A DNA stretch of 35,687 bases, from the IMG/VR virus record IMGVR_UViG_2690315992_000010, one strand, 5' to 3'. The notes beneath the pieces were generated by a model. That model saw only the letters and a program-made list of their open reading frames with translations, searched no databases and was not told the origin of the DNA. Within the stretch, counting starts at the first letter, position 1, and each line of letters begins with the position of its first letter. The stretch comes from a virus (Duplodnaviria; Heunggongvirae; Uroviricota; Caudoviricetes). Positions 1,447-33,966 of this stretch are shown in pieces. The position numbers and the translations under genes were made by a program.

Positions 1447-1486
1447 GCCCCTATCGTTATAATACGCGGTAGGGGCGTTTTTGTTT
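1447..1486 (+). terminator. hairpin with T-tract between secreted-protein gene and recombinase gene
   Basis: GCCCCTA...TAGGGGC stem around a TTATAATA centre, followed by GTTTTTGTTT. Could be a terminator/attenuator or a recombinase-associated palindrome. Confidence 0.4.
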
Positions 1487-1495
1487 GGAAATGGT

Positions 1496-3175
1496 ATGAA
1501 AACTAAACTGTATTCGTATATTCGTTTCTCGTCTATGCGTCAGAATGATGGTTCGAGTTATGAACGACAAATCAGGATGGCTAGAGAGATTGCGGTAAAG
1601 TATGACCTTGAACTGGTAAATGATTATCAGGATCTGGGTGTATCTGCGTTTAAGGGTGCTAACTCCAAAACAGGGGCGCTATCTCGTTTCCTTGATGCAA
1701 TAGGTAGATCCGTTCCTGTTGGTAGCTGGCTATTCATCGAAAACTTGGACCGTTTATCCCGTGCCGATATTGTCAGTGCGCAGGAGTTATTCCTTTCAAT
1801 CATCCGTAGGGGGATAACCATTGTTACTGGCATGGATAACAAGATCTACTCGCTGGATACTGTTACCGCTAACCCGATGGACCTGATGTTCTCCATCCTT
1901 TTATTCATCCGTGGTAATGAGGAAAGCCAGACTAAGCGCAATCGTACTAACTCAAGCGCACTGATTAAGATTAAAGCTCATCAAGAAAATCCACAAAATC
2001 CGGCTGTTGCAATCGAGGAAATTGGAAAGAATATGTGGTGGACTGATACCACATCTGGTTATGTGCTTCCTCATCCGGTCTTCTTCCCTATTGTTCAGGA
2101 AGTTGTGGAATTACGCAGGAATGGACGGTCAACCGCCGAGATACTGGATCACCTTAACGCGACATACACACCACCACCAGCCGCAAGTCACAAGAGGCAT
2201 TCAAACTGGTCACGGGCAATGATTGAAAGGTTGTTCCATACCCGCGCTTTGATTGGTATCAAGGAAATCTCTGTAGATGGCGTTAAGTATGAGTTAAAGG
2301 ATTATTATCCTCGTGTGCTAGATGACGCTGAGTTTTATCACCTTAAGAAAAGCATTGGTGTTAGAGCATGTAACTTTGGAGACAAAGAAGAAGTTAAACC
2401 TATTCCCTTGCTTAGTGGTGTTGGTCTATTGAAATGTGAACATTGCGGTTCCGCTATGGTTAAGGTGAAAGGAACAAACAGACGGCCTAACCAATATCGT
2501 TATTCATGCGATGCAATGCGCTCTAGTCGTATTGAATGTGTGCATACAAACTGGAGTTTTCGCGGCGACCAATTAGAGAAAGCTGTATTGCAATTGCTGG
2601 CTGATAAAATCTGGATTGCTGAAGATAAGGCTAATCCGGTTCCGGCTTTGAAAGTACAGATTGATGAAATATCACGCAAGATTGATAACCTGATTACCCT
2701 TTCTGCTATGACAGGAGCAACGAAGGAGCTAGCCGATCAGATTACTACCCTCAATAGCGAGCGTGAAACACTCTACAATCAAATTAAGATGGCAGAAGAG
2801 GAAATGTATTCTGTTGACTCTCAAGGCTGGGAGAAGCTCGCAGAATTTGATTTAGAAGATGTTTACAACGAGGATCGCATTAAGGTCCGGTTTAAGATTA
2901 AGCAAGCTCTAAAACGGATCGGGTGTAGCAGGATTGACAAGTACAAAAACTTGTTTGTACTGGAATACATCGATGGCAAGACCCAGAGAGTTGTAATAGA
3001 AAATTCAAGAGGACCGAGGAAAGGCCGGATCTTCGTTGATTTGAAGACTATCAATGATAGGCAGATTCTGGAGAGTAACGGGCTTGTTCTGCATCCATGT
3101 TTAGACATGCTGACAGATAAGAACTGGAAACCAGAAGAAGAAATACCAGGTCCATTACAGGAATTTGGAATTTAA
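1496..3175 (+). CDS. large serine recombinase (putative serine integrase)
   Basis: N-terminal resolvase-type catalytic domain (YIRFSSMRQ...SYERQ, GVSAFKG, ENLDRLSRA), then recombinase domain, Cys-rich zinc-ribbon (CEHCGS...YRYSCD...CVH) and coiled-coil; 559 aa from ATG 1496. Track start 1481 is TTG; ATG 1496 is in frame. Confidence 0.8.
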   Translation: MKTKLYSYIRFSSMRQNDGSSYERQIRMAREIAVKYDLELVNDYQDLGVSAFKGANSKTGALSRFLDAIGRSVPVGSWLFIENLDRLSRADIVSAQELFLSIIRRGITIVTGMDNKIYSLDTVTANPMDLMFSILLFIRGNEESQTKRNRTNSSALIKIKAHQENPQNPAVAIEEIGKNMWWTDTTSGYVLPHPVFFPIVQEVVELRRNGRSTAEILDHLNATYTPPPAASHKRHSNWSRAMIERLFHTRALIGIKEISVDGVKYELKDYYPRVLDDAEFYHLKKSIGVRACNFGDKEEVKPIPLLSGVGLLKCEHCGSAMVKVKGTNRRPNQYRYSCDAMRSSRIECVHTNWSFRGDQLEKAVLQLLADKIWIAEDKANPVPALKVQIDEISRKIDNLITLSAMTGATKELADQITTLNSERETLYNQIKMAEEEMYSVDSQGWEKLAEFDLEDVYNEDRIKVRFKIKQALKRIGCSRIDKYKNLFVLEYIDGKTQRVVIENSRGPRKGRIFVDLKTINDRQILESNGLVLHPCLDMLTDKNWKPEEEIPGPLQEFGI

Positions 3176-5612: not shown

Positions 5613-5717
5613 TACGCCCCCGATATTTTTATATAGTTTAATGGCAAAATTATTTAGATAAAAATAATCCCGCCTAACTCAAAAGAATTAAGCGGGATTA
5701 ATTATTAGAATTAAATT

Positions 5718-25181: not shown

Positions 25182-27086
25182 TTAGAACGATGTTACCCAG
25201 CTACGGCCTCTATTTGGGCGTCTGGCGATGTTTTTACGTTGTGGTCGTGTGATTGGCTTATTTTCTTCGATTTGCTCGTCAGATTGCGATTTAGGAGCTT
25301 CTACGGATTCTTCTGGTTCACGGTTCAAACTATCTTTGATGGCTTCGAGTTTTTCCCATGACATTTTATTGAGTACATGGCGATAACTAGCCACCGCATA
25401 GGTTAGGCAGTCCAAGCCCTCGTTGCGTTGCTGACCAACTTTTACCCAACGTGTGGTATTACCCTGCCGTTTCAACTGTTCAGATAGCAATTGCTCGCAG
25501 TAGTCATCAGGAACGTCACCAATCTGGAAGACCGTATGAGGATCGCTGTCTCTCAAGTTCCGGTTAATCATTTCACGGATCATCGTCTTAAGGTTGTTTA
25601 CGCCCAGAATTTTAAGGGTAAAACCGCCCGTTCTTGTGTCTTTTACCGGAAGGATTGGAGCATCAACATTACTTGCGCCCTTAATGGCGCATAGATTTTG
25701 CCACCTAGTGCAAAAGCGGTAGATCACTTGCGTAGCTCGTCCGTTTGATGAGTCCACGAAAGCGGATAGCATCGGGATTCGTTGACCGGATCGGGTATAG
25801 AATTTTGCTTTCAGGAAGTTGTAAAGCTGGTCATATGCTGGTGATTCGTGGCGTTCGCAGTTCACATCATAGAATGATCGGTGATCAACTACGCATATCC
25901 CTTTACGAGAGATACCCAGCAAGGTAGATTCCAGACGGTCTTTTTGCTGGTCAACTCCACCTACCAGAGCCAAAACATCATCAGGAATATTATCTAAGCT
26001 AATGTCAGTTTTCAGCGTTTCCAGTTCGTCGGCTGTGCGGTCTTCGTTAAGATCATCGAAGGTTTCACCGAGCACCACATTATAGAACGTTGCCAGCGAC
26101 ATATTCGCGTAGCTATCAGCAAAGTCCACCACACACGCACGGATAGAACTAAACGGAGACATAAGGCGGTTAGCATGAAAACCGATTACTTCCGCATTTG
26201 GTTCGGTGGCGACCCATTCTCCCTGAGCAACAGCACGGAGGCGATCTGGTTCTGACCAATCAGTTTCACATGACGGGCAACGGTAAACGGCTGTGTCTGG
26301 ATTCGGCAGTGATTTACCATTGATTACATGCCAATCAAAGAATACTCTACTCCATTCCATTACGTGTTTGTGTCCGCAATGCTGGCAAACGACGTGGTAT
26401 TTTCTTTTATCCGAGAGTTCCCATTGTTGGTTTATCGCCCCATCCCGCGAAGTTGGAGTAGAAGCAATTACGATCCTTGCATCATCACCGAAAGTGGTTG
26501 CGCGTTGTTCCGCTAGCTGGATCGGGTTCCCTTCGTCTGACTCATCAGCCGCATCAACTTCATCAAGAATAATCAAAGGTAGTGTTTTACCGCGAAGATG
26601 TGATGGACTATTCAACGACATGAAATACATGAATGATCCGTTACGAAGCTGAATAATCGATGAGTTGTTAACGGCATTGCGATCTGACTTGTCGGTGATC
26701 ATCGCCTTTAATTCTGGGGTTGCCTCTAATACTGGCTTCACCTTACCCGCGATCCAGCTATTCAACTCGCGGACGTTTGCTTGCAAAACACCTATATTAG
26801 TGGGGTTGCTGGCGATCCTATGAAAGATAATACCGTTTAGCACAAGAGTTTTACCCAACTGCGCCGAGCACTTTAGCACAATTTTTCGCCTATCTTCGGT
26901 GATCGCGTCCATCATCCCACGTTGGAAAGGATGCAATTTAATTAGCGATCCGGCTTTAACACCATCGGTTGCAACTACATTAGCCTCTACCCATTCGCTA
27001 GGTTTCATGGCTTTAGGTGGGCGAATTGCAGCAGAGATATTTCTGAGAATCTTTTTTAATTTTGCCTTATTAGAAATCAGTTTCAT
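25182..27086 (-). CDS. terminase large subunit (GpA family)
   Basis: 634 aa; Walker A-like KCSAQLGKT, IASTPT motif, Cys-rich zinc-finger-like segment (CQHCGH...CPSC), size similar to lambda gpA; GAGGGTAA RBS before ATG 27086. Confidence 0.8.
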   Translation of the reverse strand: MKLISNKAKLKKILRNISAAIRPPKAMKPSEWVEANVVATDGVKAGSLIKLHPFQRGMMDAITEDRRKIVLKCSAQLGKTLVLNGIIFHRIASNPTNIGVLQANVRELNSWIAGKVKPVLEATPELKAMITDKSDRNAVNNSSIIQLRNGSFMYFMSLNSPSHLRGKTLPLIILDEVDAADESDEGNPIQLAEQRATTFGDDARIVIASTPTSRDGAINQQWELSDKRKYHVVCQHCGHKHVMEWSRVFFDWHVINGKSLPNPDTAVYRCPSCETDWSEPDRLRAVAQGEWVATEPNAEVIGFHANRLMSPFSSIRACVVDFADSYANMSLATFYNVVLGETFDDLNEDRTADELETLKTDISLDNIPDDVLALVGGVDQQKDRLESTLLGISRKGICVVDHRSFYDVNCERHESPAYDQLYNFLKAKFYTRSGQRIPMLSAFVDSSNGRATQVIYRFCTRWQNLCAIKGASNVDAPILPVKDTRTGGFTLKILGVNNLKTMIREMINRNLRDSDPHTVFQIGDVPDDYCEQLLSEQLKRQGNTTRWVKVGQQRNEGLDCLTYAVASYRHVLNKMSWEKLEAIKDSLNREPEESVEAPKSQSDEQIEENKPITRPQRKNIARRPNRGRSWVTSF

Positions 27087-27129
27087 GTAATTACCCTCAT
27101 TACGAAATATGAAGGTATTTATTAAATTG

Positions 27130-27158
27130 TTGATATTTTGATAAATACGGGTATTAAG
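27130..27158 (+). promoter_or_regulatory. candidate sigma70 promoter for rightward gene 27175 (divergent from terminase)
   Basis: TTGATA - 16 bp - TATTAA upstream of AAGGGGGGG RBS. Confidence 0.3.
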
Positions 27159-27174: not shown

Positions 27175-27780
27175 ATGCTAATTAATCAGCAACAAAGAGA
27201 TGCATTAGAATTAGCCTTTTCTTGTTGTACCGATCATGAATATCGTTTGCCAGTTAAGCACCATCACAAGAAGACTGATTACACAACATCTGGCTTTAGT
27301 CGTGAGGAAGCTAAACAGATTTTAATCGAGTTGTATCGCGATCATGGGTATACCGATATTCATAACTTCTTTAAGAAGCATCGTACATCACAGACAGAGT
27401 TTAATAGAGTTCGTGAATGGTTTGATTTTGACATTAAGCGATTCTATCGAGTAGATGACGGTCCTATCTATCGGTTGCAGTGGACACCGATTAGGGAAGT
27501 GCTTAAACAGAAGAGATTGAATCATGCCATTACACGCTATCGTAATGTGGCTTTTAAGAAAGGCTATGGTGATTCAAGGGAATTGTTTGTAGAACTCGCT
27601 AACGTGCGATATAGCCACTATTACAGGAATCCTAAAGAGTTCTTCGAAGTGCTGCGCAAGGTTGATATTAGTCGGGGTACATATTATTCACGGTTGAAGA
27701 AGTACGGGATTAAGGCAGAGTTCTTTATGTCGGTTGACGATGGAGAACTTTTTCCGATAAAATGTAAGTCCTCTAAATAA
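27175..27780 (+). CDS. helix-turn-helix protein of unknown function (paralogue family member 1)
   Basis: 201 aa; contains FSREEAKQILIELYRD and C-terminal ISRGTYYSRLKKYGI segments that recur in the two small proteins at 27810 and 31471. Confidence 0.5.
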   Translation: MLINQQQRDALELAFSCCTDHEYRLPVKHHHKKTDYTTSGFSREEAKQILIELYRDHGYTDIHNFFKKHRTSQTEFNRVREWFDFDIKRFYRVDDGPIYRLQWTPIREVLKQKRLNHAITRYRNVAFKKGYGDSRELFVELANVRYSHYYRNPKEFFEVLRKVDISRGTYYSRLKKYGIKAEFFMSVDDGELFPIKCKSSK

Positions 27781-27809
27781 AGGTGAACATTCACTTTAAT
27801 TTGGAGAAA

Positions 27810-28043
27810 ATGACTATGACTACTAAAGCTACTCGCGGTCGCCCTGCCCGTTTTAACGCTGAACAGATGGCTGATATTGCCTACGCTTATTATACAGCGG
27901 ATCGTGGTAAGGAAGCGAAAGAACAGATTCTTAGTGAACATGGGATCTCAATCGCCCAATTCTATAAGAATATGAAGAAGTTGGACATTAAATTCTATGT
28001 TCAGATCGGTGATGGTCAGATCGTAGAAGCAACAGGTTTTTGA
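27810..28043 (+). CDS. small helix-turn-helix DNA-binding protein (paralogue 2)
   Basis: 77 aa from ATG 27810 (GGAG RBS); RGRPARFNAEQMADIAYAYY...ISIAQFYKNMKKLDI. Track start 27783 is GTG. Confidence 0.5.
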   Translation: MTMTTKATRGRPARFNAEQMADIAYAYYTADRGKEAKEQILSEHGISIAQFYKNMKKLDIKFYVQIGDGQIVEATGF

Positions 28044-28058
28044 GTTTTGATTCTCTTT

Positions 28059-28082
28059 GCCACTCTTCGGAGTGGCTTTTTT
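28059..28082 (+). terminator. intrinsic terminator
   Basis: GCCACTC-ttcg-GAGTGGC followed by TTTTTTG. Confidence 0.7.
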
Positions 28083-28203
28083 GTATGTAAAACAATCGGC
28101 GCAAAACTGCGCTCATTTCTAAGTTGAGTCCAAATCTGGACTGATCTATAGATGCATCCAAATCTGGAGGGATGCGCTTAAAGTTCAGCGCATCTACAGA
28201 TAC

Positions 28204-28228
28204 AAAAAAGCCCCTGAAATTCAGGGGC
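28204..28228 (-). terminator. intrinsic (bidirectional) terminator after Rha operon
   Basis: AAAAAA-GCCCCTGAA-at-TTCAGGGGC-AAAAATT; its right half is the TTCAGGGGCAAAAAT motif that forms the iteron array at 30.7-30.9 kb. Confidence 0.65.
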
Positions 28229-28236
28229 AAAAATTA

Positions 28237-29070
28237 TTACAGTCCGAAGACTTCCAGAGAGCCAGCATTCTGACGAATCAGCAAAGCAGTGTTATTAATG
28301 ATTGCTCGTGAGTTATTCGGCTGTGGCAATTTCAAAGTTGCGGCCTTTTCTTCTTCAAGCAATCCGAGTTTTACGAGATGCGGGATAGCATCAGCAGTGA
28401 ACTCGATCTGACCGTGTGCCGACATACGAGCGAACATATAGCCAGGAGGAAGCAGATCATAGCCTTTAGGCTTACCAGAAGCATCCAGACGACGCTCAAG
28501 AACACCAGCAGCACATAAACCTTTCAGAATCATTTGTACCTTCGTAGAGCCTCGTTTTTCGCCTAATAAGCGGCTAAGACTGTGTGCATCAATAGCTTTA
28601 CGGATATGAAGATCAACTAATTGTTCTTTTTCTTGAATCAGTTGTTCGTTTGCGGCTTCTAATTCCATTGCCTCACGAATCCAATCGAGCTTAGTCATGT
28701 TTGCGTATGGGTTGACTTGCTGAGAACGCAGTTTTTCATTTTCTTCTTTCAGTCGTTTCCATTCCTGAATAACAACCATTCGACGCTTAACATCGTAACC
28801 AGTGACAAGAGTCAGAGTCATTTCTTCGTCTAGTTGATATTCGTTTTGTTCGCGTCCGTATTGGTCAAAATAGATGACGCGAAACTTCGCGTGATCTTCA
28901 TAACCTAGAGCATTCAACATCTTAGTTATATCAACTTTAACTTTGTGGTGTTCTTTTCCGGTAAATTCAGCGATCTGACGAGAAGACATGGTCAGTGGTT
29001 TGGTGTTATCAACAACCAGAGACACGGAAGCAGTTTTAACAGCAGTATTCATAGTAGTAACAGTATTCAT
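28237..29070 (-). CDS. Rha-family phage regulatory protein / antirepressor
   Basis: N-terminal LTMSSRQIAEFTGKEHHKVKVDI matches the Rha-domain signature; ~150-aa C-terminal antirepressor-like domain. Confidence 0.65.
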   Translation of the reverse strand: MNTVTTMNTAVKTASVSLVVDNTKPLTMSSRQIAEFTGKEHHKVKVDITKMLNALGYEDHAKFRVIYFDQYGREQNEYQLDEEMTLTLVTGYDVKRRMVVIQEWKRLKEENEKLRSQQVNPYANMTKLDWIREAMELEAANEQLIQEKEQLVDLHIRKAIDAHSLSRLLGEKRGSTKVQMILKGLCAAGVLERRLDASGKPKGYDLLPPGYMFARMSAHGQIEFTADAIPHLVKLGLLEEEKAATLKLPQPNNSRAIINNTALLIRQNAGSLEVFGL

Positions 29071-29159
29071 AGTAAAAATTCCCCTTAAACGGTTTAGTGA
29101 TTTGGTCCTCCTAGTTCCGGCATCTCAACCGGAACAATTTTATTTATGATAGAAATTTA

Positions 29160-29492
29160 TTACCAATCGATTTCTACTTGGTCTTCTTCATAATAAGGAA
29201 TCGCATATTCATAACGCCAATTTTCGATGATTTCACGTTCTTCATTAGTAAGAAGGTGATTGTTAACTGGAGTCGCATTGTGATTACCAGCTTCGAATTG
29301 CTCGCGAACTTCCAGCATTGCATGAATACCAGTTAAGGTCATCAGATCAAACGGAACATGCATACTACGGGAGATAGTTTCACGGGATACACCCCAATCA
29401 TTTTCTACATGGCTAGGGGTTACAGAAACGGTTTTGCCGGAGATTTTAACAGTCCAGTCATACAGGGATTTAGTGATGGTAAATTCTTTCAT
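29160..29492 (-). CDS. hypothetical protein
   Basis: 110-aa ORF with AGAGGA RBS, first gene downstream of promoter at 29549-29577. Confidence 0.5.
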   Translation of the reverse strand: MKEFTITKSLYDWTVKISGKTVSVTPSHVENDWGVSRETISRSMHVPFDLMTLTGIHAMLEVREQFEAGNHNATPVNNHLLTNEEREIIENWRYEYAIPYYEEDQVEIDW

Positions 29493-29548
29493 GTTACATC
29501 CTCTTTACAAATCTAGGTCAAATAGGTTCAAAGTTGTCAAGCGCGATA

Positions 29549-29577
29549 ATCATAAAAAAGTCAGAAATTTTTGTCAA
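29549..29577 (-). promoter_or_regulatory. candidate sigma70 promoter (leftward) overlapped by palindromic operator
   Basis: Minus-strand -35 TTGACA (29577-29572), 17-bp spacer, -10 TATGAT (29554-29549). Palindrome TTGTCAA-tacccc-TTGACAA at 29571-29590 overlaps the -35. Confidence 0.4.
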
Positions 29578-29612
29578 TACCCCTTGACAAGACGCCAAAG
29601 GGTTGACCTAAC

Positions 29613-30071
29613 TTACAGCATATCTAAGCCTTCATCGTAACCGTAGAAGCCACCGTGAGAAGAGAAAGCGATTGGTGCGTAGTCTTCGTCTTCCTCATCT
29701 TGTTCTGGGGCTTCCTGAGCGGTTTCTTTACCGTAATTAAACATTGCTTCATCCAGTTCACGAAGAGTCAAGAAGCTACCCAGGTCAATGTCACCGGAAC
29801 GGACTTGAAACGGCAGATCATCACGAACAATAATTGCTGGTAGATTCTGGTACTTTAAGCGTTCTTCATCGGTGAAGACGTTAACAACAATGGTCGGCTT
29901 CTTATTACGGCAAAACGCATACCATGCACTAGAGAAATGGGATTCATCAGAGTTGAAAAGGATGTTATAACCACGTTCACGGAACATCTTCATTAACTTG
30001 TCATTGTGGAAGCTATCAGAATCCAGACCCAGAAGGATAAAAGGAGTAGTGGTAGTCATCTTGTGGTTCAT
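29613..30071 (-). CDS. hypothetical protein with acidic C-terminal tail
   Basis: 152 aa, GAGGA RBS; C-terminus EAPEQDEEDEDYAP; no domain recognised. Confidence 0.5.
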   Translation of the reverse strand: MNHKMTTTTPFILLGLDSDSFHNDKLMKMFRERGYNILFNSDESHFSSAWYAFCRNKKPTIVVNVFTDEERLKYQNLPAIIVRDDLPFQVRSGDIDLGSFLTLRELDEAMFNYGKETAQEAPEQDEEDEDYAPIAFSSHGGFYGYDEGLDML

Positions 30072-30713
30072 AGTGGAAATCCTCTAAAAGAAAGTGAATC
30101 AAACAAATTACACTAGTATTTATAACGAGAATTTTTTATCTATTTGGAAGGGATTGGTATTCAGTCGGGCATAGCCCTCCTTCATAGATTTTGATTAAAT
30201 CATCATCAAAACGAAGAAGTATCTTTAGAATATAAGAATCTTTCTTTCGAAGAAAGAATAATCAGGAAGCAATTTCAGCAACCGCAGGTTGCGATCCCGA
30301 AGGGATAACCAATACCTTTCTAGAAAGTGATTGTTACTCACTTCGTTCGTTTACTAGAATCAGTTATCATCTAGTATTAAAATCCCTTTCTAAGAAAATC
30401 CTTTCAAAAGTGATTCTCGATGCCACGCAGTGGCGTCGCAGACGTTTGAGAGTGAGCGAAGCGAGCGAGCAAACTAGTTAATTCCTTCTAAGACCATCTA
30501 GTATCATCTAGTTTAAATTAGTTGTTACTAGAAGTAATTGGTTAGCGCTACGCGCAGTCGGGCAAAGCCCTCCTAATATCTTTTTGGTTATTTTTGGTTT
30601 TACACATGAGCGTAGCGAATGTGTTATATAATATCTATGCACGCCCGATTCCCCGTTTTTACCCCTCACTAAGTTAATGTTTTATAAAGAGTTTTTCTTA
30701 CCAATCCTTTTCG

Positions 30714-30906
30714 GGGGCAAATTTCAGGGGCAAAAATTAGATTTTAAGGGGCAATTATTGGCATTTCAGGGGCAAAAATGAGGGGCAAAATCACTGTTTC
30801 CCAGAATTTCAGGGGCAAAAATAGTGGGTTTCAGGGGCAAAAATGGGATAGTGGAATCTTGGGTATTTTGGTTCGGGGGCAAAATTCAGAATTTCAGGGG
30901 CAATTC
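30714..30906. repeat. array of ~9 direct GGGGCAA(A/T) iterons (5 copies of full TTTCAGGGGCAAAAAT)
   Basis: Core starts near 30715, 30727, 30749, 30770, 30782, 30811, 30832, 30876, 30897; spacings mostly 12 or 21 bp; non-coding. Confidence 0.6.
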
Positions 30907-30993
30907 CCATCAAATATTTTGATAGAAAATTCTTGTATATTATTTAATCAAAAAATCACCAAAAAGTGGCGTAAGTTAATGATTTAAAAAGAA

Positions 30994-31019
30994 TTGTCAA
31001 AAGGTCTCCGTGCTATAAT
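30994..31019 (+). promoter_or_regulatory. candidate extended -10 promoter (rightward)
   Basis: TTGTCAA at 30994-31000 and TGcTATAAT at 31011-31019. Confidence 0.35.
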
Positions 31020-31099
31020 AGGTTATAAAGGTTGATAATCCTGATCTACCATTTTCAAACAAAAATTTTGATAGTCATTTCTCGCTTAGGTCAAGTGTA

Positions 31100-31128
31100 T
31101 TGACAACTGTCAAGGATTATTTTATACT
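31100..31128 (+). promoter_or_regulatory. candidate strong sigma70 promoter (rightward) with palindromic -35 region
   Basis: TTGACA (31100-31105), 17-bp spacer, TATACT (31123-31128); -35 lies in palindrome TTGACAACTGTCAA. Confidence 0.5.
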
Positions 31129-31263
31129 TTTTCTCACTGGTGGGGGTTGAAATTTTCTAAACAGTCCCCATATAGATGATAAGCAAGAATTTCCACGTTA
31201 TAAATACATGTGTGAAATGATTGTTCACTTCTGAAAATCTCCTGATCCACTGCTAATTCATAC

Positions 31264-31291
31264 AGCACTGGTTAGATATACAGTGCTTTTT
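31264..31291 (+). terminator. intrinsic terminator-like hairpin (possible end of a ~160-nt small RNA)
   Basis: AGCACTG-gttagatata-CAGTGCT followed by TTTT. Confidence 0.4.
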
Positions 31292-31415
31292 CGGTTGAAT
31301 ATTGTACGAATTGATTAATAATTAATCTTCTCTTTAGCAATTCGTGCTCCCACTGATCGGATATACAGTGGTTTTACAGGGTTTTCTGAAAATCATTTTA
31401 TAAATACAAGTGTTC

Positions 31416-31436
31416 AGAGCGAAATGCTCTTTTTTA
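31416..31436 (+). terminator. attenuator hairpin immediately upstream of gene 31471
   Basis: AGAGC-gaaat-GCTCT followed by TTTTTT. Confidence 0.45.
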
Positions 31437-31470
31437 AGAAATTATTAATCCACATGTGAGGAATCGACTG

Positions 31471-31650
31471 ATGGCTAGACCTGTTAAGTTCACTCGTGAA
31501 ATGATTGTTGATATTGCTAAACGCTTTTACAGCGACACTGAGCGAGGCGGGGAAAACTTCTTTAAGAAGGAAGGAATTGATAGAAGCGGATTCTACAAGC
31601 TAATGAAGAAATACGAAATTCAGGTAAAGATTAACGTTCAAGTTTGTTAA
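31471..31650 (+). CDS. small helix-turn-helix DNA-binding protein (paralogue 3)
   Basis: 59 aa from ATG 31471 (GAGGA RBS); ARPVKFTREMIVDIAKRFY...IDRSGFYKLMKKYEI parallels the 27810 protein. Track start 31456 is GTG. Confidence 0.5.
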   Translation: MARPVKFTREMIVDIAKRFYSDTERGGENFFKKEGIDRSGFYKLMKKYEIQVKINVQVC

Positions 31651-31765
31651 TCCACTTTCACTGAGAATTATATGATGGCTTTAAAAAAAGAAAAAGCCTC
31701 CCTTGTTGCAGCAAAGGAGGCTTGAAATGAACAATTAAAACTAACTTTCTACAGGAGTATTTATA

Positions 31766-32710
31766 ATGTTATTTTCCGCTAACTTTTTCACTAACGAAGT
31801 AACCAACGCTAAAGCAGTTATCAAATTTGGCACCGAAGCAAACAAGAAGATTCAGCCGAAAGTTGTTGTTCATGTTTCCTTTGCGCAGCAGAAATCCGCT
31901 TTCGCTGGCTTTAAAGCACATCGTGAAGCACTGATCGCGGCTGGCTTTGGTGTTGACGGTAAACTGCCTAACGGCATTCGTAAAGCAATCGACCGCGTTA
32001 AACCTGCTAAAGACGTTGCAGTAGACCACATCGTTACTTTCACCGTTAAGAACTCTTCTGAACTGTTCCACCTAGTGATTGCTGGTGATACTGCTATCGT
32101 TTCCGCTCCTAACATGGATTTTCAGGATACCGCTGATTGCAACATTACCTTTGGTCGTCGTAAAGAAGTTACCGGAAAAGCTAAACTGAACTTCACCAAA
32201 TCCGGCAATCCTTACTTTGCTGTATTCTTTAACAGCCACGCTACTGAGAAAGAAGTAGTAGAACTGGTTGCATATGAAGGTGAAGAAAAAGCACGTATTG
32301 AATCTTGCGACGCTTTCGTAGAACTGGAAGCACAGGTTAATGCTGTTTCTCCGGTTGCTGTTGAAGATCGTTTCTCTGCACTGGAAGCACAGATCGCAGA
32401 ACTGAAAGCTGCGCTGGAAGAAAAAGACCAGATCATCGAAGCACAGAAAGCTGAGATTGAAGAACTGAAAGCTAAAGAAGTTGCTCCGGTGGCAGTAGTT
32501 GAAAATGCGGCTGATGAGGCCGCAAATGATGAAGTAGAAGTGAAAATCGATGTGATGCGTGATCCGATGGCTGCACTGCAATTGCTTCGTTCTTTTAAGG
32601 GCAAATCTCATTTTTCTAGTGATGCGGTAGACGAGGAAGAAGAACAGAAACGCAATGTTGCAATGCTTCATGATGAAATGTACGGTACTAACTTTTCTTA
32701 CTGCCAATAA
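31766..32710 (+). CDS. hypothetical protein, apparently highly expressed (N-terminal globular part, C-terminal Ala/Glu-rich coiled-coil-like region)
   Basis: 314 aa; consensus AGGAG RBS 8 nt before ATG; codon usage strongly skewed to CTG/CGT/GGT/GAA/AAA/GCT; bracketed by terminators. No family recognised. Confidence 0.6.
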   Translation: MLFSANFFTNEVTNAKAVIKFGTEANKKIQPKVVVHVSFAQQKSAFAGFKAHREALIAAGFGVDGKLPNGIRKAIDRVKPAKDVAVDHIVTFTVKNSSELFHLVIAGDTAIVSAPNMDFQDTADCNITFGRRKEVTGKAKLNFTKSGNPYFAVFFNSHATEKEVVELVAYEGEEKARIESCDAFVELEAQVNAVSPVAVEDRFSALEAQIAELKAALEEKDQIIEAQKAEIEELKAKEVAPVAVVENAADEAANDEVEVKIDVMRDPMAALQLLRSFKGKSHFSSDAVDEEEEQKRNVAMLHDEMYGTNFSYCQ

Positions 32711-33408: not shown

Positions 33409-33966
33409 TTACGACACATCAAATTCATCATCTTCTTCTGGTTCTTGTTCTTCCGGTTCATCCATTAATGGTAATTCTTCTTCCTCGTCTTCTCCCAAAT
33501 CTGCATTTTCGAACAAGTCCCCTACTTCATTTAAACGACGCTCGATGATCTCCCTTAGCTTATTCTTCAATGTTTTCTGGTCAGTTGCAGATTCGAGAAT
33601 TTCTAAAGCGTCGATTGTGGCGATCTGCAAAATAGTCTGTTTCACTTTCCCGCAGTATTCCGCTAGTTGCTGTTCTACATAACCGACAGGAATCAGGAGA
33701 TTCATTTTTTCCTGGTTCTCTCGTTCGGCTGCATCTGCCATTGCTCTTTCTCTGCGGAGACGTTCTTGATCAATCGCTTCTTTGATTGAAGTTTGTTTAA
33801 GTGGGTTAATTACGTTCTTTAGCACCCAATCGCAACCTTCCTTTGCTGGAACACGCCTCTTATTGGTATTGTAAGGTAGTCCCCTTTCTAACCATCGCTT
33901 ACCGCCACCATTCAATGTATAACCATATAAACGGGAAATTTCTGTAAGGGTTAATTCTTCTTTCAT
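33409..33966 (-). CDS. terminase small subunit (Nu1-like) candidate
   Basis: N-terminal HTH segment LTLTEISRLYGYTLNGGGKRWLERGLPY resembles the Nu1 DNA-binding domain pattern; central coiled-coil; strongly acidic C-terminus; GGAGGA RBS; palindromes and GC-rich site just upstream. Confidence 0.5.
   Translation of the reverse strand: MKEELTLTEISRLYGYTLNGGGKRWLERGLPYNTNKRRVPAKEGCDWVLKNVINPLKQTSIKEAIDQERLRRERAMADAAERENQEKMNLLIPVGYVEQQLAEYCGKVKQTILQIATIDALEILESATDQKTLKNKLREIIERRLNEVGDLFENADLGEDEEEELPLMDEPEEQEPEEDDEFDVS

What the first reader, a model, noticed from the sequence alone, without database searches (positions are those of the whole stretch)
27175..31650. Three paralogous helix-turn-helix proteins flanking the repeat hub
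Proteins at 27175-27780 (201 aa), 27810-28043 (77 aa) and 31471-31650 (59 aa) share an N-terminal (R)GRP..F..E.....IA..Y segment and a C-terminal I(S/D)..(Y/F)Y..(L/M)KK(Y/L)(G/D/E)I helix. Triplicated small DNA-binding proteins next to an iteron array and divergent from the late operon start are candidates for late-gene activators, iteron-binding proteins or a terminase-associated recognition factor.
Basis: seen in the sequence. Interest (0 to 1): 0.5.

Follow-up and report, generated by a model that had tools for sequence, protein, structure and literature searches.

The report
Orphan HTH regulator trio in prophage
Three small genes in an E. coli prophage are true paralogues encoding an unannotated type of helix-turn-helix DNA-binding domain, but comparison of 36 related prophages shows they do not read the nearby repeat array; a different, unknown protein does.

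Summary
The window is a ~35-kb E. coli prophage inserted in hicB. ORF2 (27816-28043) and ORF3 (31471-31650) are clear paralogues (BLASTP E 7e-10). The shared domain forms the C-terminal half of ORF1 (profile-profile E 4e-8). A weaker second copy lies in the N-terminal half of ORF1, giving four domains in three genes. All three genes are under purifying selection and syntenic in 53 related loci.

AlphaFold2 predicts three helices plus a beta-hairpin. Pfam, PHROGs, NCBIfam and PADLOC give no hit. Remote hits lead to the transposase/resolvase HTH families.

The iteron-binding idea fails. Across 36 relatives there are five unrelated iteron sequences. They track perfectly with the gene after ORF3 (p314) and not with ORF1, ORF2, ORF3, TerL or TerS. 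A terminase role is unlikely, because a separate Nu1-like small terminase exists.

ORF3 travels with iterons, a predicted antisense RNA and a p314-like gene, even inside a T4-like phage. This layout resembles plasmid CopG/CopB copy-control circuits.

The most likely reading is a set of phage-specific transcription regulators: ORF3 for the iteron/p314 operon, and ORF1-ORF2 at the back-to-back ORF1/terminase control region. The DNA targets remain untested.

The parts
27175..27780 (+). ORF1, 201 aa: N-terminal helix plus two tandem copies of the HTH-plus-hairpin module. Copy 1 is about nt 27295-27474 and copy 2 about nt 27544-27756.
   Evidence: dN/dS 0.14. 32 homologues in E. coli, Salmonella and Proteus, all annotated hypothetical.
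27816..28043 (+). ORF2, 75 aa (77 aa if started at 27810): RGRP arm, three helices, beta-hairpin.
   Evidence: dN/dS 0.20.
31471..31650 (+). ORF3, 59 aa: ARP arm, three helices and a short C-terminal strand. It is the first gene of the ORF3-p314 pair.
   Evidence: dN/dS 0.13. Homologue next to a p314-like gene in a T4-like phage.
27115..27148 (.). Back-to-back ATAAATAC elements (27115-27122 minus strand, 27141-27148 plus strand) in the 88-bp TerL/ORF1 intergenic region. This is the candidate divergent control region for the late operon and ORF1-ORF2.
   Evidence: Nearly invariant in 38 of 40 loci. In L033 and L038 the two elements abut.
28059..28082 (+). Intrinsic terminator ending the ORF1-ORF2 unit.
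   Evidence: Conserved in relatives.
30709..30908 (+). Array of nine direct GGGGCAA(A) iterons, mostly 21-22 bp apart. It is not read specifically by the three paralogues.
31100..31128 (+). Near-consensus sigma-70-type promoter-like site (TTGACA-17-TATACT) facing ORF3, with the palindrome TTGACAACTGTCAA over the first hexamer.
   Evidence: Conserved in window-type loci and L002.
31250..31368 (.). Three CTG-N10-CAG boxes (starting at 31250, 31268 and 31353), LexA-box-like, in the leader upstream of ORF3.
   Evidence: The cassette occurs with ORF3 types 0, 1 and 2. L002 has a perfect TACTGTATGAATATACAGTA.
31400..31437 (+). TATAAATAC element followed by a conserved hairpin (31416-31430) and a T run, directly upstream of the ORF3 ribosome-binding site.
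   Evidence: The hairpin keeps pairing through sequence changes in six loci.
31684..31764 (-). Predicted antisense transcription unit of about 70 nt between ORF3 and p314. It comprises TATAAATAC (31757-31764, overlapping the p314 start codon), a 12-bp GC-rich hairpin (31694-31723) and a T run.
   Evidence: 7 of 12 stem pairs show compensatory changes. Present in L041 and in the T4-like phage L042.
31766..32710 (+). p314: protein of unknown family with a central coiled coil, the iteron-cognate partner of the array and the conserved downstream neighbour of ORF3.
   Evidence: (within-type identity at least 51.5%, between-type at most 23.4%).

Best explanation
The three genes encode a lineage-specific family of small DNA-binding proteins. 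Each module is a tri-helical (homeodomain-like, transposase/resolvase-type) helix-turn-helix followed by a beta-hairpin. ORF2 and ORF3 also carry an N-terminal R-G/A-R-P arm of the kind that lies in an adjacent AT-rich minor groove in Hin-type domains.

The proteins are regulators of the phage's own transcription units. They are not readers of the iterons and not terminase subunits.

ORF3 is the leader gene of a portable cassette: iterons, promoter, ORF3, antisense RNA, then the iteron-cognate protein p314. Most likely ORF3 binds the control region of its own operon and sets how much p314 is made, together with the antisense RNA. This is how CopG in pMV158 and CopB in R1 control rep. In about half of the relatives the operon also carries LexA-like boxes, so ORF3 would be an early, damage-induced product.

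ORF1 (two modules) and ORF2 (one module) form a separate operon. Its ATAAATAC element sits back to back with the identical element in front of the large terminase gene. They most likely act at this conserved 88-bp region, and possibly at the same element in front of the lysis cassette, to switch between their own expression and late-operon expression.

Shown here: paralogy, coding status, predicted fold, synteny, lack of covariation with the iterons, the ORF3-p314 linkage, and the conserved antisense unit.

Inferred: DNA binding itself, the targets, the sign of regulation, and the replication role of p314.
For: Paralogy and fold.

Remote link to HTH_Tnp_1, HTH_23, HTH_28 and HTH_7 through tandem-HTH proteins. 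Weak structural neighbours are almost all tri-helical DNA binders, including homeodomains, sigma region 4, CENP-B, Myb, Tc3 and Mu C.

Gene status and synteny in 53 loci from E. coli, Salmonella and Proteus.

Iterons track p314 only.

The ORF3-p314 pair is conserved across five p314 specificity types, in the distant relative L041, and in a T4-like phage where it again follows an iteron array.

The antisense promoter-like element plus terminator between ORF3 and p314 is conserved with compensatory changes.

The CopG/CopB architecture (a small repressor gene cotranscribed with rep) is described in PMC5717011 and PMC4485353.

The TerL/ORF1 intergenic region is nearly invariant even where the flanking genes are 50-60% identical.

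ATAAATAC occurs 7 times against 2.1 expected, and 0 of 100 shuffles reach 7. Of the nine ATAAATAY sites, seven lie 27-65 nt upstream of a start codon in the sense orientation. These include TerL and the lysis cassette, which share a leader hairpin.

The ORF2 recognition helix (GISIAQFYK) is invariant from E. coli to Proteus, which fits a conserved DNA target.
Against: No experiment or direct computation shows DNA binding or identifies any target.

I found no DNA element that covaries with the ORF3 allelic types:
- the TTGACAACTGTCAA palindrome is shared by loci with different ORF3 recognition helices;
- the CTG-N10-CAG cassette occurs with three ORF3 types.

CopG is a ribbon-helix-helix protein, so the comparison is with the circuit layout only.

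p314 has no detectable similarity to any replication initiator, and nothing related is found on plasmids. 'Rep operon' is therefore itself an inference.

In L041 the ORF1/ORF2 homologues are not next to TerL. This weakens the late-switch idea.
Confidence: 0.4

Rival explanations
1. One or more of the paralogues is the prophage maintenance (immunity) repressor or its Cro-like antagonist. It would act on the two near-consensus sigma-70-type promoters at 31100-31128 (+) and 29577-29549 (-), which carry TTGACA/TGTCAA inverted repeats. The Rha/Ant-like protein would serve as antirepressor.
For: No CI-type repressor (HTH plus S24 peptidase) was found among the ORFs scanned. A Rha/anti-repressor-like gene is present. 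ORF3 is Cro-sized and is the first gene after a strong promoter. ORF1-ORF2 run opposite to the lytic-direction genes.
Against: The TTGACAACTGTCAA palindrome does not covary with the ORF3 type. ORF3 lies behind LexA-like boxes in half of the loci, which fits an induced gene rather than a maintenance gene. An ORF3 homologue functions in a virulent T4-like phage, which has no lysogeny.
Confidence: 0.17
2. The paralogues, ORF1 above all, are promoter-specificity factors. They would be sigma-like or obligate activators that let RNA polymerase use the phage's TATAAATAC promoters. These promoters lack a -35 element and resemble T4 late promoters.
Confidence: 0.1
3. They are DNA-recognition accessories of the packaging machinery, such as cos- or pac-site binders working with the gpA-type terminase. 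This was one of the first reader's suggestions.
For: ORF1-ORF2 abut the TerL gene in 53 loci. The arm-plus-HTH layout resembles the N-terminal DNA-binding domains of some small terminases, and tandem-HTH relatives cross-hit Pfam Sf6_terminase.
Against: A complete Nu1-like TerS is present (Phage_Nu1 hit on the L041 orthologue). The paralogues lack an oligomerisation core. They are transcribed divergently from TerL. In L041 they are distant from TerL. ORF3 belongs to a cassette that also sits in a T4-like phage with its own terminase. They do not covary with TerL or TerS.
Confidence: 0.06
4. They are the iteron-binding (origin-recognition) proteins. This was another of the first reader's suggestions.
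For: They lie close to the array, and tandem HTH modules could read tandem repeats. A non-significant PDB hit, 2lvs_A, is a two-HTH protein (E 0.32).
Against: Five iteron types against the paralogue types give AUC values of 0.56-0.70. Many pairs are at least 95% identical across different iteron types, and L003 and L004 have 100% identical ORF1 and ORF2 but different iterons. p314 associates perfectly.
Confidence: 0.04
5. One of them is the recombination directionality factor (excisionase) for the large serine integrase at 1481-3175.
For: Known directionality factors for serine integrases include very small proteins (my own knowledge). No other candidate was recognised.
Against: The genes lie 24-30 kb from the integrase. 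ORF3 is tied to p314 and also occurs in a non-integrating T4-like phage. Three paralogues are not needed for this role.
Confidence: 0.04

Closest known systems
Transposase/resolvase-type tri-helical HTH domains (Pfam HTH_Tnp_1, HTH_23, HTH_28, HTH_7; Hin-type arm plus HTH)
   Same: Three short helices are predicted, with the third as the likely recognition helix. ORF2 and ORF3 carry an N-terminal basic G/A-R-P arm. The profile reaches tandem-HTH proteins that score strongly for these families.
   Different: No direct match at E up to 0.1. The proteins stand alone, with no catalytic domain. They carry an extra C-terminal beta-hairpin, and ORF1 lacks the arm.
Plasmid copy-control circuits: CopG-RNAII-RepB (pMV158) and CopB-CopA-RepA (R1)
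   Same: A small DNA-binding protein gene lies immediately upstream of, and in the same orientation as, the gene for the iteron-cognate protein. A short antisense RNA unit sits between them, and iterons lie nearby (PMC5717011, PMC4485353).
   Different: CopG is ribbon-helix-helix, not HTH. p314 is unrelated to RepB or RepA and is not proven to be an initiator. The cassette is in phages, and no plasmid relative exists. The antisense RNA is predicted only.
Phage Mu Mor and C (paralogous small HTH activators of middle and late promoters that lack good -35 elements)
   Different: No Pfam Mor hit. There is no evidence of a dimerisation domain, and the target sites are unknown.
Lambda Nu1 / Sf6 gp1 small-terminase N-terminal DNA-binding domains
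   Same: An N-terminal HTH that recognises phage DNA, with a gene next to the large terminase gene.
   Different: The paralogues lack the oligomerisation and TerL-binding parts. A separate Nu1-like TerS is present.
T4 oriE with its 12-nt iterons and the repEA/repEB genes
   Same: An iteron cluster with small adjacent genes in a T4-type genome (PMC3016281). The ORF3/p314-like cassette in L042 is likewise an iteron cluster with small genes in a T4-like phage.
   Different: There is no detectable sequence similarity: tblastn against 50,697 phage records finds nothing. The genomic position also differs (between gp3 and gp2).

Membership tests
Pfam HTH_7 / HTH_23 / HTH_28 / HTH_Tnp_1 (resolvase/transposase HTH) | Score at or above the family gathering threshold | tested here: not met
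   No hit to these families at E up to 0.1 for ORF1, ORF2 or ORF3. The only link is indirect, through tandem-HTH proteins found with the domain profile.
Pfam HTH_7 / HTH_23 / HTH_28 / HTH_Tnp_1 (resolvase/transposase HTH) | Tri-helical helix-turn-helix fold | tested here: met
   AlphaFold2 predicts H17-29, H34-43 and H48-55 in ORF2 (pLDDT 80). ORF1 has two such modules. This is a prediction only, and fold-search scores are weak.
Pfam HTH_7 / HTH_23 / HTH_28 / HTH_Tnp_1 (resolvase/transposase HTH) | Attached to a recombinase or transposase catalytic domain | tested here: not met
   The proteins are stand-alone, at 59, 75 and 201 aa.
Hin-type HTH with minor-groove arm | N-terminal G-R-P arm preceding helix 1 | tested here: inconclusive
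   R and P are invariant in 28 ORF2/ORF3 homologues, but absent from both ORF1 modules. Minor-groove contact cannot be tested with these tools.
Small terminase subunit (Nu1 / Sf6 gp1 type) | Match to TerS profiles, and an oligomerisation core after the HTH | tested here: not met
   No TerS hit in PHROGs or Pfam, and the proteins are too short. The TerS profile hit (phrog_57, E 6.9e-11) belongs to 33409-33966.
Small terminase subunit (Nu1 / Sf6 gp1 type) | Stable adjacency and co-orientation with TerL | tested here: not met
   ORF1-ORF2 are adjacent to TerL but divergent in 53 loci. They are not adjacent in L041.
Iteron-binding initiator or origin-recognition protein | Protein specificity type changes together with the iteron sequence | tested here: not met
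   AUC is 0.59, 0.56 and 0.70 for ORF1, ORF2 and ORF3, against 1.000 for p314. ORF1 and ORF2 are identical in L003 and L004, which have different iterons.
CopG/CopB-type copy-control repressor | Small DNA-binding protein gene directly upstream of and co-oriented with the iteron-cognate gene | tested here: met
   ORF3 precedes p314 in every locus with both genes, across five p314 types, in L041 and in the T4-like L042.
CopG/CopB-type copy-control repressor | Antisense RNA gene between the repressor gene and the rep gene | tested here: inconclusive
   A promoter-like element plus an oriented terminator is conserved with compensatory changes. No expression data are available.
CopG/CopB-type copy-control repressor | Binds and represses its own operon promoter; the downstream gene is a replication initiator | not testable with these tools
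   This needs EMSA or reporter assays and a replication assay. p314 has no family match.
CopG/CopB-type copy-control repressor | Ribbon-helix-helix fold (CopG) | tested here: not met
   The predicted fold is helical HTH plus hairpin.
Mu Mor/C late activators | Match to Pfam Mor (PF08765) | tested here: not met
Sigma factors / T4 gp55 | Sigma region 2 or gp55 homology | tested here: not met

The most novel reading that the evidence does not exclude
Iterons, ORF3, the antisense RNA and p314 form a self-contained, horizontally mobile origin and copy-control cassette of a kind not yet described. It would exchange its DNA-specificity module (five iteron/p314 types) and move between temperate enterobacterial prophages and T4-like virulent phages. 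The HTH family would be its dedicated regulator. This prophage lineage would have duplicated that regulator (ORF1, ORF2) to drive its T4-late-like TATAAATAC promoters, including the terminase and lysis promoters.
Probability: 0.2. Interest if true: 0.7.

Novelty: new variant of a known kind. Interest (0 to 1): 0.45.

Why it matters
The three proteins define an unannotated HTH subfamily. Only 31 hits appear among 1.8 billion representative proteins, and no curated family matches. Together with a Rha-like protein, they are the only recognisable regulators of a widespread but unstudied E. coli, Salmonella and Proteus prophage lineage. That lineage is present in 58 of 5,426 complete E. coli genomes, and one copy carries mcr-1.

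Assigning the regulators would explain how a prophage with no CI-type repressor and no known replication genes is controlled.

The negative result matters as much. It moves the iteron-reading role to p314, a protein of unknown family with five swappable specificities. It also exposes a cassette shared with a T4-like phage. Both are directly testable.

Tried and rejected
- Pfam, PHROGs, NCBIfam and PADLOC scans of the three proteins gave nothing below E 0.05.
- PDB sequence searches with the family profiles gave nothing significant. The best hit was 2lvs_A, a two-HTH protein, at E 0.32.
- Rfam and tRNA scans of the window found nothing.
- Blastn of the region against phage genomes found no relative except an ~80-nt segment shared with Krischvirus.
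- Tblastn of p314, ORF3, the T4-like ORF3 homologue and its 204-aa neighbour against phage and plasmid collections found no match.
- Two scans of species-representative genomes found no relative.
- Further viral and metagenome scans returned only the same prophage family.
- I looked for a DNA element covarying with ORF3 alleles: the promoter palindrome, the CTG-N10-CAG boxes and the sequence next to TATAAATAC. None fitted.
- I considered TerL as the iteron partner after the first six loci. With 36 loci this was rejected (AUC 0.58).
- I considered GCGNAGC mini-hairpins as an origin signature. They are not enriched in the window as a whole: 14 found against 10.5 expected.
- A de novo search for a second repeat family in 30072-30700 gave several short recurring words (GAAAGTGAWT, CATCTAGT, TCCYTTC) but no crisp motif.
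- A literature search for this prophage family found nothing relevant.

Full report
**Context**

The window is a ~35-kb prophage.
- A large serine integrase lies at 1481-3175.
- A 23-kb minus-strand lysis, tail and head block ends with a lambda gpA-type large terminase at 25182-27086.
- The right end is a truncated hicB.
- Closely related DNA is present in 58 of 5,426 complete E. coli genomes, always on the chromosome.
- No cultured phage is related at the DNA level. The best TerL match is 43% identical.

The region of the finding sits in a 6.3-kb regulatory block. That block separates the TerL gene from a Nu1-like small terminase gene at 33409-33966 (phrog_57, E 6.9e-11; the L041 orthologue has a faint Phage_Nu1 hit).

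**The observation**

The three ORFs exist.
- ORF2 vs ORF3: BLASTP E 7e-10, 35% identity over 57 residues.
- ORF1 residues 134-187 vs ORF3: E 1e-6.
- ORF1 residues 41-88 vs ORF3: E 0.004.
- ORF2+ORF3 family alignment vs ORF1 family alignment: hhalign 95% probability, E 4e-8, over ORF1 120-194.
- An HMM of the ORF2/ORF3 families scores the ORF1 C-half at 21.8 bits (0 of 2000 shuffles reach it) and the N-half at 6.1 bits (8 of 2000).

ORF1 therefore contains two copies of the domain, the second one degenerate, giving four copies in three genes.

In ORF1 it sits in the C-terminal half and lacks the GRP arm.

Median dN/dS is 0.14, 0.20 and 0.13 for ORF1, ORF2 and ORF3, against 0.11 for TerL. All three have Shine-Dalgarno sequences. 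RefSeq relatives start ORF2 at the second ATG.

**Fold and family**

AlphaFold2 with family alignments gives the following.
- ORF2: three helices (17-29, 34-43, 48-55) and a beta-hairpin (63-66, 70-73), pLDDT 80.
- ORF1: two such modules (43-100 and 135-194), with block pLDDT 85-92 and 77-90, joined by low-confidence linkers.

Pfam, PHROGs, NCBIfam and PADLOC give nothing.

An exhaustive HMM search of 1.84 billion representatives with the four-copy alignment gave only 31 hits. Beyond the orthologues, these are proteins with 4-7 tandem repeats of the domain. Those proteins score strongly as HTH_Tnp_1, HTH_23, HTH_28 and HTH_7.

'Helix-turn-helix' is therefore a supported prediction. Membership of a named family is not established.

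**Conservation of the arrangement**

The following order is kept in 40 loci from E. coli, Salmonella and Proteus and in 13 further metagenome loci:

TerL(-) | ORF1 ORF2(+) | Rha, p110, p152(-) | ~1.3 kb non-coding with iterons | ORF3 p314(+) | small ORF, TerS(-)

The family is highly mosaic. Modules recombine independently.

**Test of iteron binding**

The repeat array is not the same in all relatives.
- GGGGCAA: 19 loci, including the window.
- AGTGTAGG: 13 loci.
- CGGGGAY: 2 loci.
- CTAGGGAT: 1 locus.
- TTGTACAT: 1 locus.

For each gene I asked whether pairs of loci with the same iteron type are more similar than pairs with different types.

| Gene | AUC | Note |
|---|---|---|
| p314 | 1.000 | within-type identity at least 51.5%, between-type at most 23.4% |
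| ORF1 | 0.59 | 36 of 380 between-type pairs at least 95% identical |
| ORF2 | 0.56 | 94 of 380 |
| ORF3 | 0.70 | 46 of 380 |
| TerL | 0.58 | |
| TerS | 0.63 | |

L003 and L004 have 100% identical ORF1 and ORF2 but different iterons. The window and L004 have 98% identical ORF3 but different iterons.

The paralogues are therefore not the specificity determinants for the iterons. p314 is. p314 has a central coiled coil and no match to any library.

**What ORF3 is linked to**

ORF3 always precedes p314, whatever the p314 type.

In the more distant prophage L041, the ORF1-like gene (frameshifted), ORF2-like, ORF3-like and p314-like genes all lie together on one strand, just after an array of TTCAAATGCTAC repeats. 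TerL is elsewhere in that locus.

An ORF3 homologue (64 aa, 44-46% identical) lies in a 168-kb T4-like phage contig and in an independent short contig. It sits between the gp3 and gp2 genes.
- It is preceded by at least 10 AGCGATTAC repeats and a promoter-like site.
- It is followed by a 204-aa protein homologous to the N-terminal ~110 residues of p314 proteins (38% identity, E 1.6e-14).
- An 80-aa coiled-coil protein comes next.

Between ORF3 and p314, on the opposite strand, every G- and T-type locus, L041 and the T4-like phage carry (T/C)ATAAATAC overlapping the p314 start codon. About 40 nt later comes a 12-14-bp GC-rich hairpin and a T run. Seven of 12 stem pairs show compensatory changes. 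On the coding strand the hairpin is not followed by a T run, so it is oriented for an antisense RNA of about 70 nt.

This layout is a small DNA-binding protein gene, an antisense RNA, a gene for the iteron-cognate protein, and iterons nearby. It matches the layout of the CopG-RNAII-RepB and CopB-CopA-RepA copy-control circuits (PMC5717011, PMC4485353).

The analogy concerns architecture only. CopG has a different fold, p314 is not shown to be an initiator, and no plasmid carries a relative.

**Control signals around ORF3**

- A near-consensus promoter-like site (TTGACA-17-TATACT) at 31100-31128 faces ORF3.
- Three CTG-N10-CAG boxes follow at 31250, 31268 and 31353.
- This cassette is present in about half of the loci, with ORF3 types 0, 1 and 2. 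Its first box is a perfect CTGT-N8-ACAG in many loci.
- L002 instead has a canonical TACTGTATGAATATACAGTA.

The boxes fit the host LexA consensus (established knowledge) and do not follow the ORF3 type. ORF3-p314 is therefore probably SOS-inducible in those phages. LexA binding was not tested.

A conserved hairpin plus T run lies directly upstream of the ORF3 ribosome-binding site in all loci examined.

**What ORF1-ORF2 are linked to**

The 88-bp TerL/ORF1 spacer is nearly invariant in 38 of 40 loci, although the flanking genes vary down to 47-57% identity.

It holds two ATAAATAC elements in opposite orientation, 18 bp apart. Each lies 27-29 nt from a start codon.

- ATAAATAC occurs 7 times in the window against 2.1 expected, and 0 of 100 shuffles reach 7.
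- Of the nine ATAAATAY sites, seven lie 27-65 nt upstream of a start codon in the sense orientation.
- The TerL and lysis-cassette copies share the leader ATAAATAC-CYTCAT-N8-ATGRGGGTA-N4-ATG.
- The sigma-70 scan reports none of them. No register of the motif offers both A-11 and T-7, which is my own reading of the sequence.
- The core equals the T4 late TATA box, which works without a -35 element (PMC2988020).
- In L033 and L038 the TerL half of the spacer is replaced. A TCTAAATAC then abuts the ORF1 element. L041 keeps TCTAAATAC plus a hairpin before TerL.

I infer that ORF1-ORF2 act at this back-to-back control region. No computation links the proteins to the motif, and in L041 they are not adjacent to TerL.

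**Verdict**

The paralogy is real and extends to a fourth copy. The HTH assignment is a reasonable prediction.

The iteron-binding reading is contradicted. The terminase-accessory reading is unlikely. The late-activator reading stays open for ORF1/ORF2.

The best-supported statement is that these are phage-specific DNA-binding regulators, with ORF3 tied to the iteron/p314 cassette.

The family itself is a new, narrow variant of a very common kind of protein. The more unusual items emerged in passing: p314 with its swappable specificity, the cassette shared with a T4-like phage, and the T4-late-like promoter elements.

Noticed in passing
window 31766-32710 and 30709-30908; L004, L005, L026, L033, L038: p314 belongs to no known family and has a central coiled coil. 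It exists in five very divergent types (at most 23% identity between types), each paired with its own iteron sequence. The association is perfect across 36 loci. It is a candidate new initiator or iteron-binding family.
   Followed up: partly
window 31684-31764 (minus strand); L041 about 9340-9441; L042 about 5620-5710: A predicted ~70-nt antisense RNA lies between ORF3 and p314. A TATAAATAC element overlaps the p314 start codon, and an oriented terminator with compensatory stem changes follows.
   Followed up: partly
L042 4894-6625 and L043 (T4-like phage contigs): A cassette is inserted between the gp3 and gp2 genes of a T4-like phage. It holds at least 10 AGCGATTAC iterons, an ORF3 homologue, a p314-N-terminal homologue (204 aa) and an 80-aa coiled-coil protein. 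It was seen in two independent samples and is absent from 50,697 deposited phage genomes.
   Followed up: partly
window 978, 4448, 10738, 27115, 27141, 30116, 31200, 31400, 31757: ATAAATAY elements, whose core matches the T4 late promoter box, lie upstream of seven genes in the sense orientation and lack recognisable -35 hexamers. The TerL and lysis-cassette copies share a leader hairpin that pairs with the Shine-Dalgarno sequence.
   Followed up: partly
window 31250-31368; L002 13816-13835: LexA-box-like CTG-N10-CAG triplets lie upstream of ORF3 in about half of the family, and L002 has a perfect LexA box. This suggests direct SOS control of the ORF3-p314 operon in a prophage with no CI-type repressor.
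   Followed up: partly
window 30184-30265: An ~80-nt non-coding segment is 77-81% identical to a segment between tail-fibre genes of Krischvirus (RB49/JSE-like) phages. It is conserved in most relatives of this prophage.
   Followed up: partly
window 28085-28236: The ORF2/Rha intergenic region is a string of small hairpins. Their stems differ between relatives while their loops (AAANT) and spacers (ATCTA) are kept. The last hairpin is the Rha terminator and contains one GGGGCAAAAAT iteron copy, even in loci with other iteron types.
   Followed up: no
window 30072-30520: A ~450-bp non-coding block left of the iterons is conserved in at least 85% of 35 loci, whatever the iteron type. It holds several short recurring words (GAAAGTGAWT, CATCTAGT, TCCYTTCTA) and small GC-rich hairpins. 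These are possible binding sites for the conserved paralogues or origin elements.
   Followed up: partly
window 25182-27086 and 33409-33966: The gpA-type large terminase gene and the Nu1-like small terminase gene are separated by the 6.3-kb regulatory block. In lambda-like phages they are adjacent.
   Followed up: no
window 29549-29588 and 31100-31114: Two near-consensus sigma-70-type promoter-like sites face outward, toward p110-Rha and toward ORF3. Both carry TTGACA/TGTCAA inverted repeats and are possible operators of an unidentified repressor.
   Followed up: no
L001 26090-30743 (E. coli PE15): A relative of this prophage carries ISApl1-mcr-1-pap2-ISApl1 inserted between the p314 gene and TerS.
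   Followed up: no
L041 7614-8354: In the distant relative the ORF1 homologue is split by a frameshift into 121-aa and 117-aa ORFs. This could be a pseudogene, a sequencing error or a programmed shift.
   Followed up: no
window 29613-30071 (p152); L041 5877-6494: A conserved protein next to the iteron region has a strongly acidic C-terminal tail ending in hydrophobic residues (…DEGLDML and …APYEFF). This recalls the tails of single-strand-binding or clamp-binding proteins. It has no family match.
   Followed up: no
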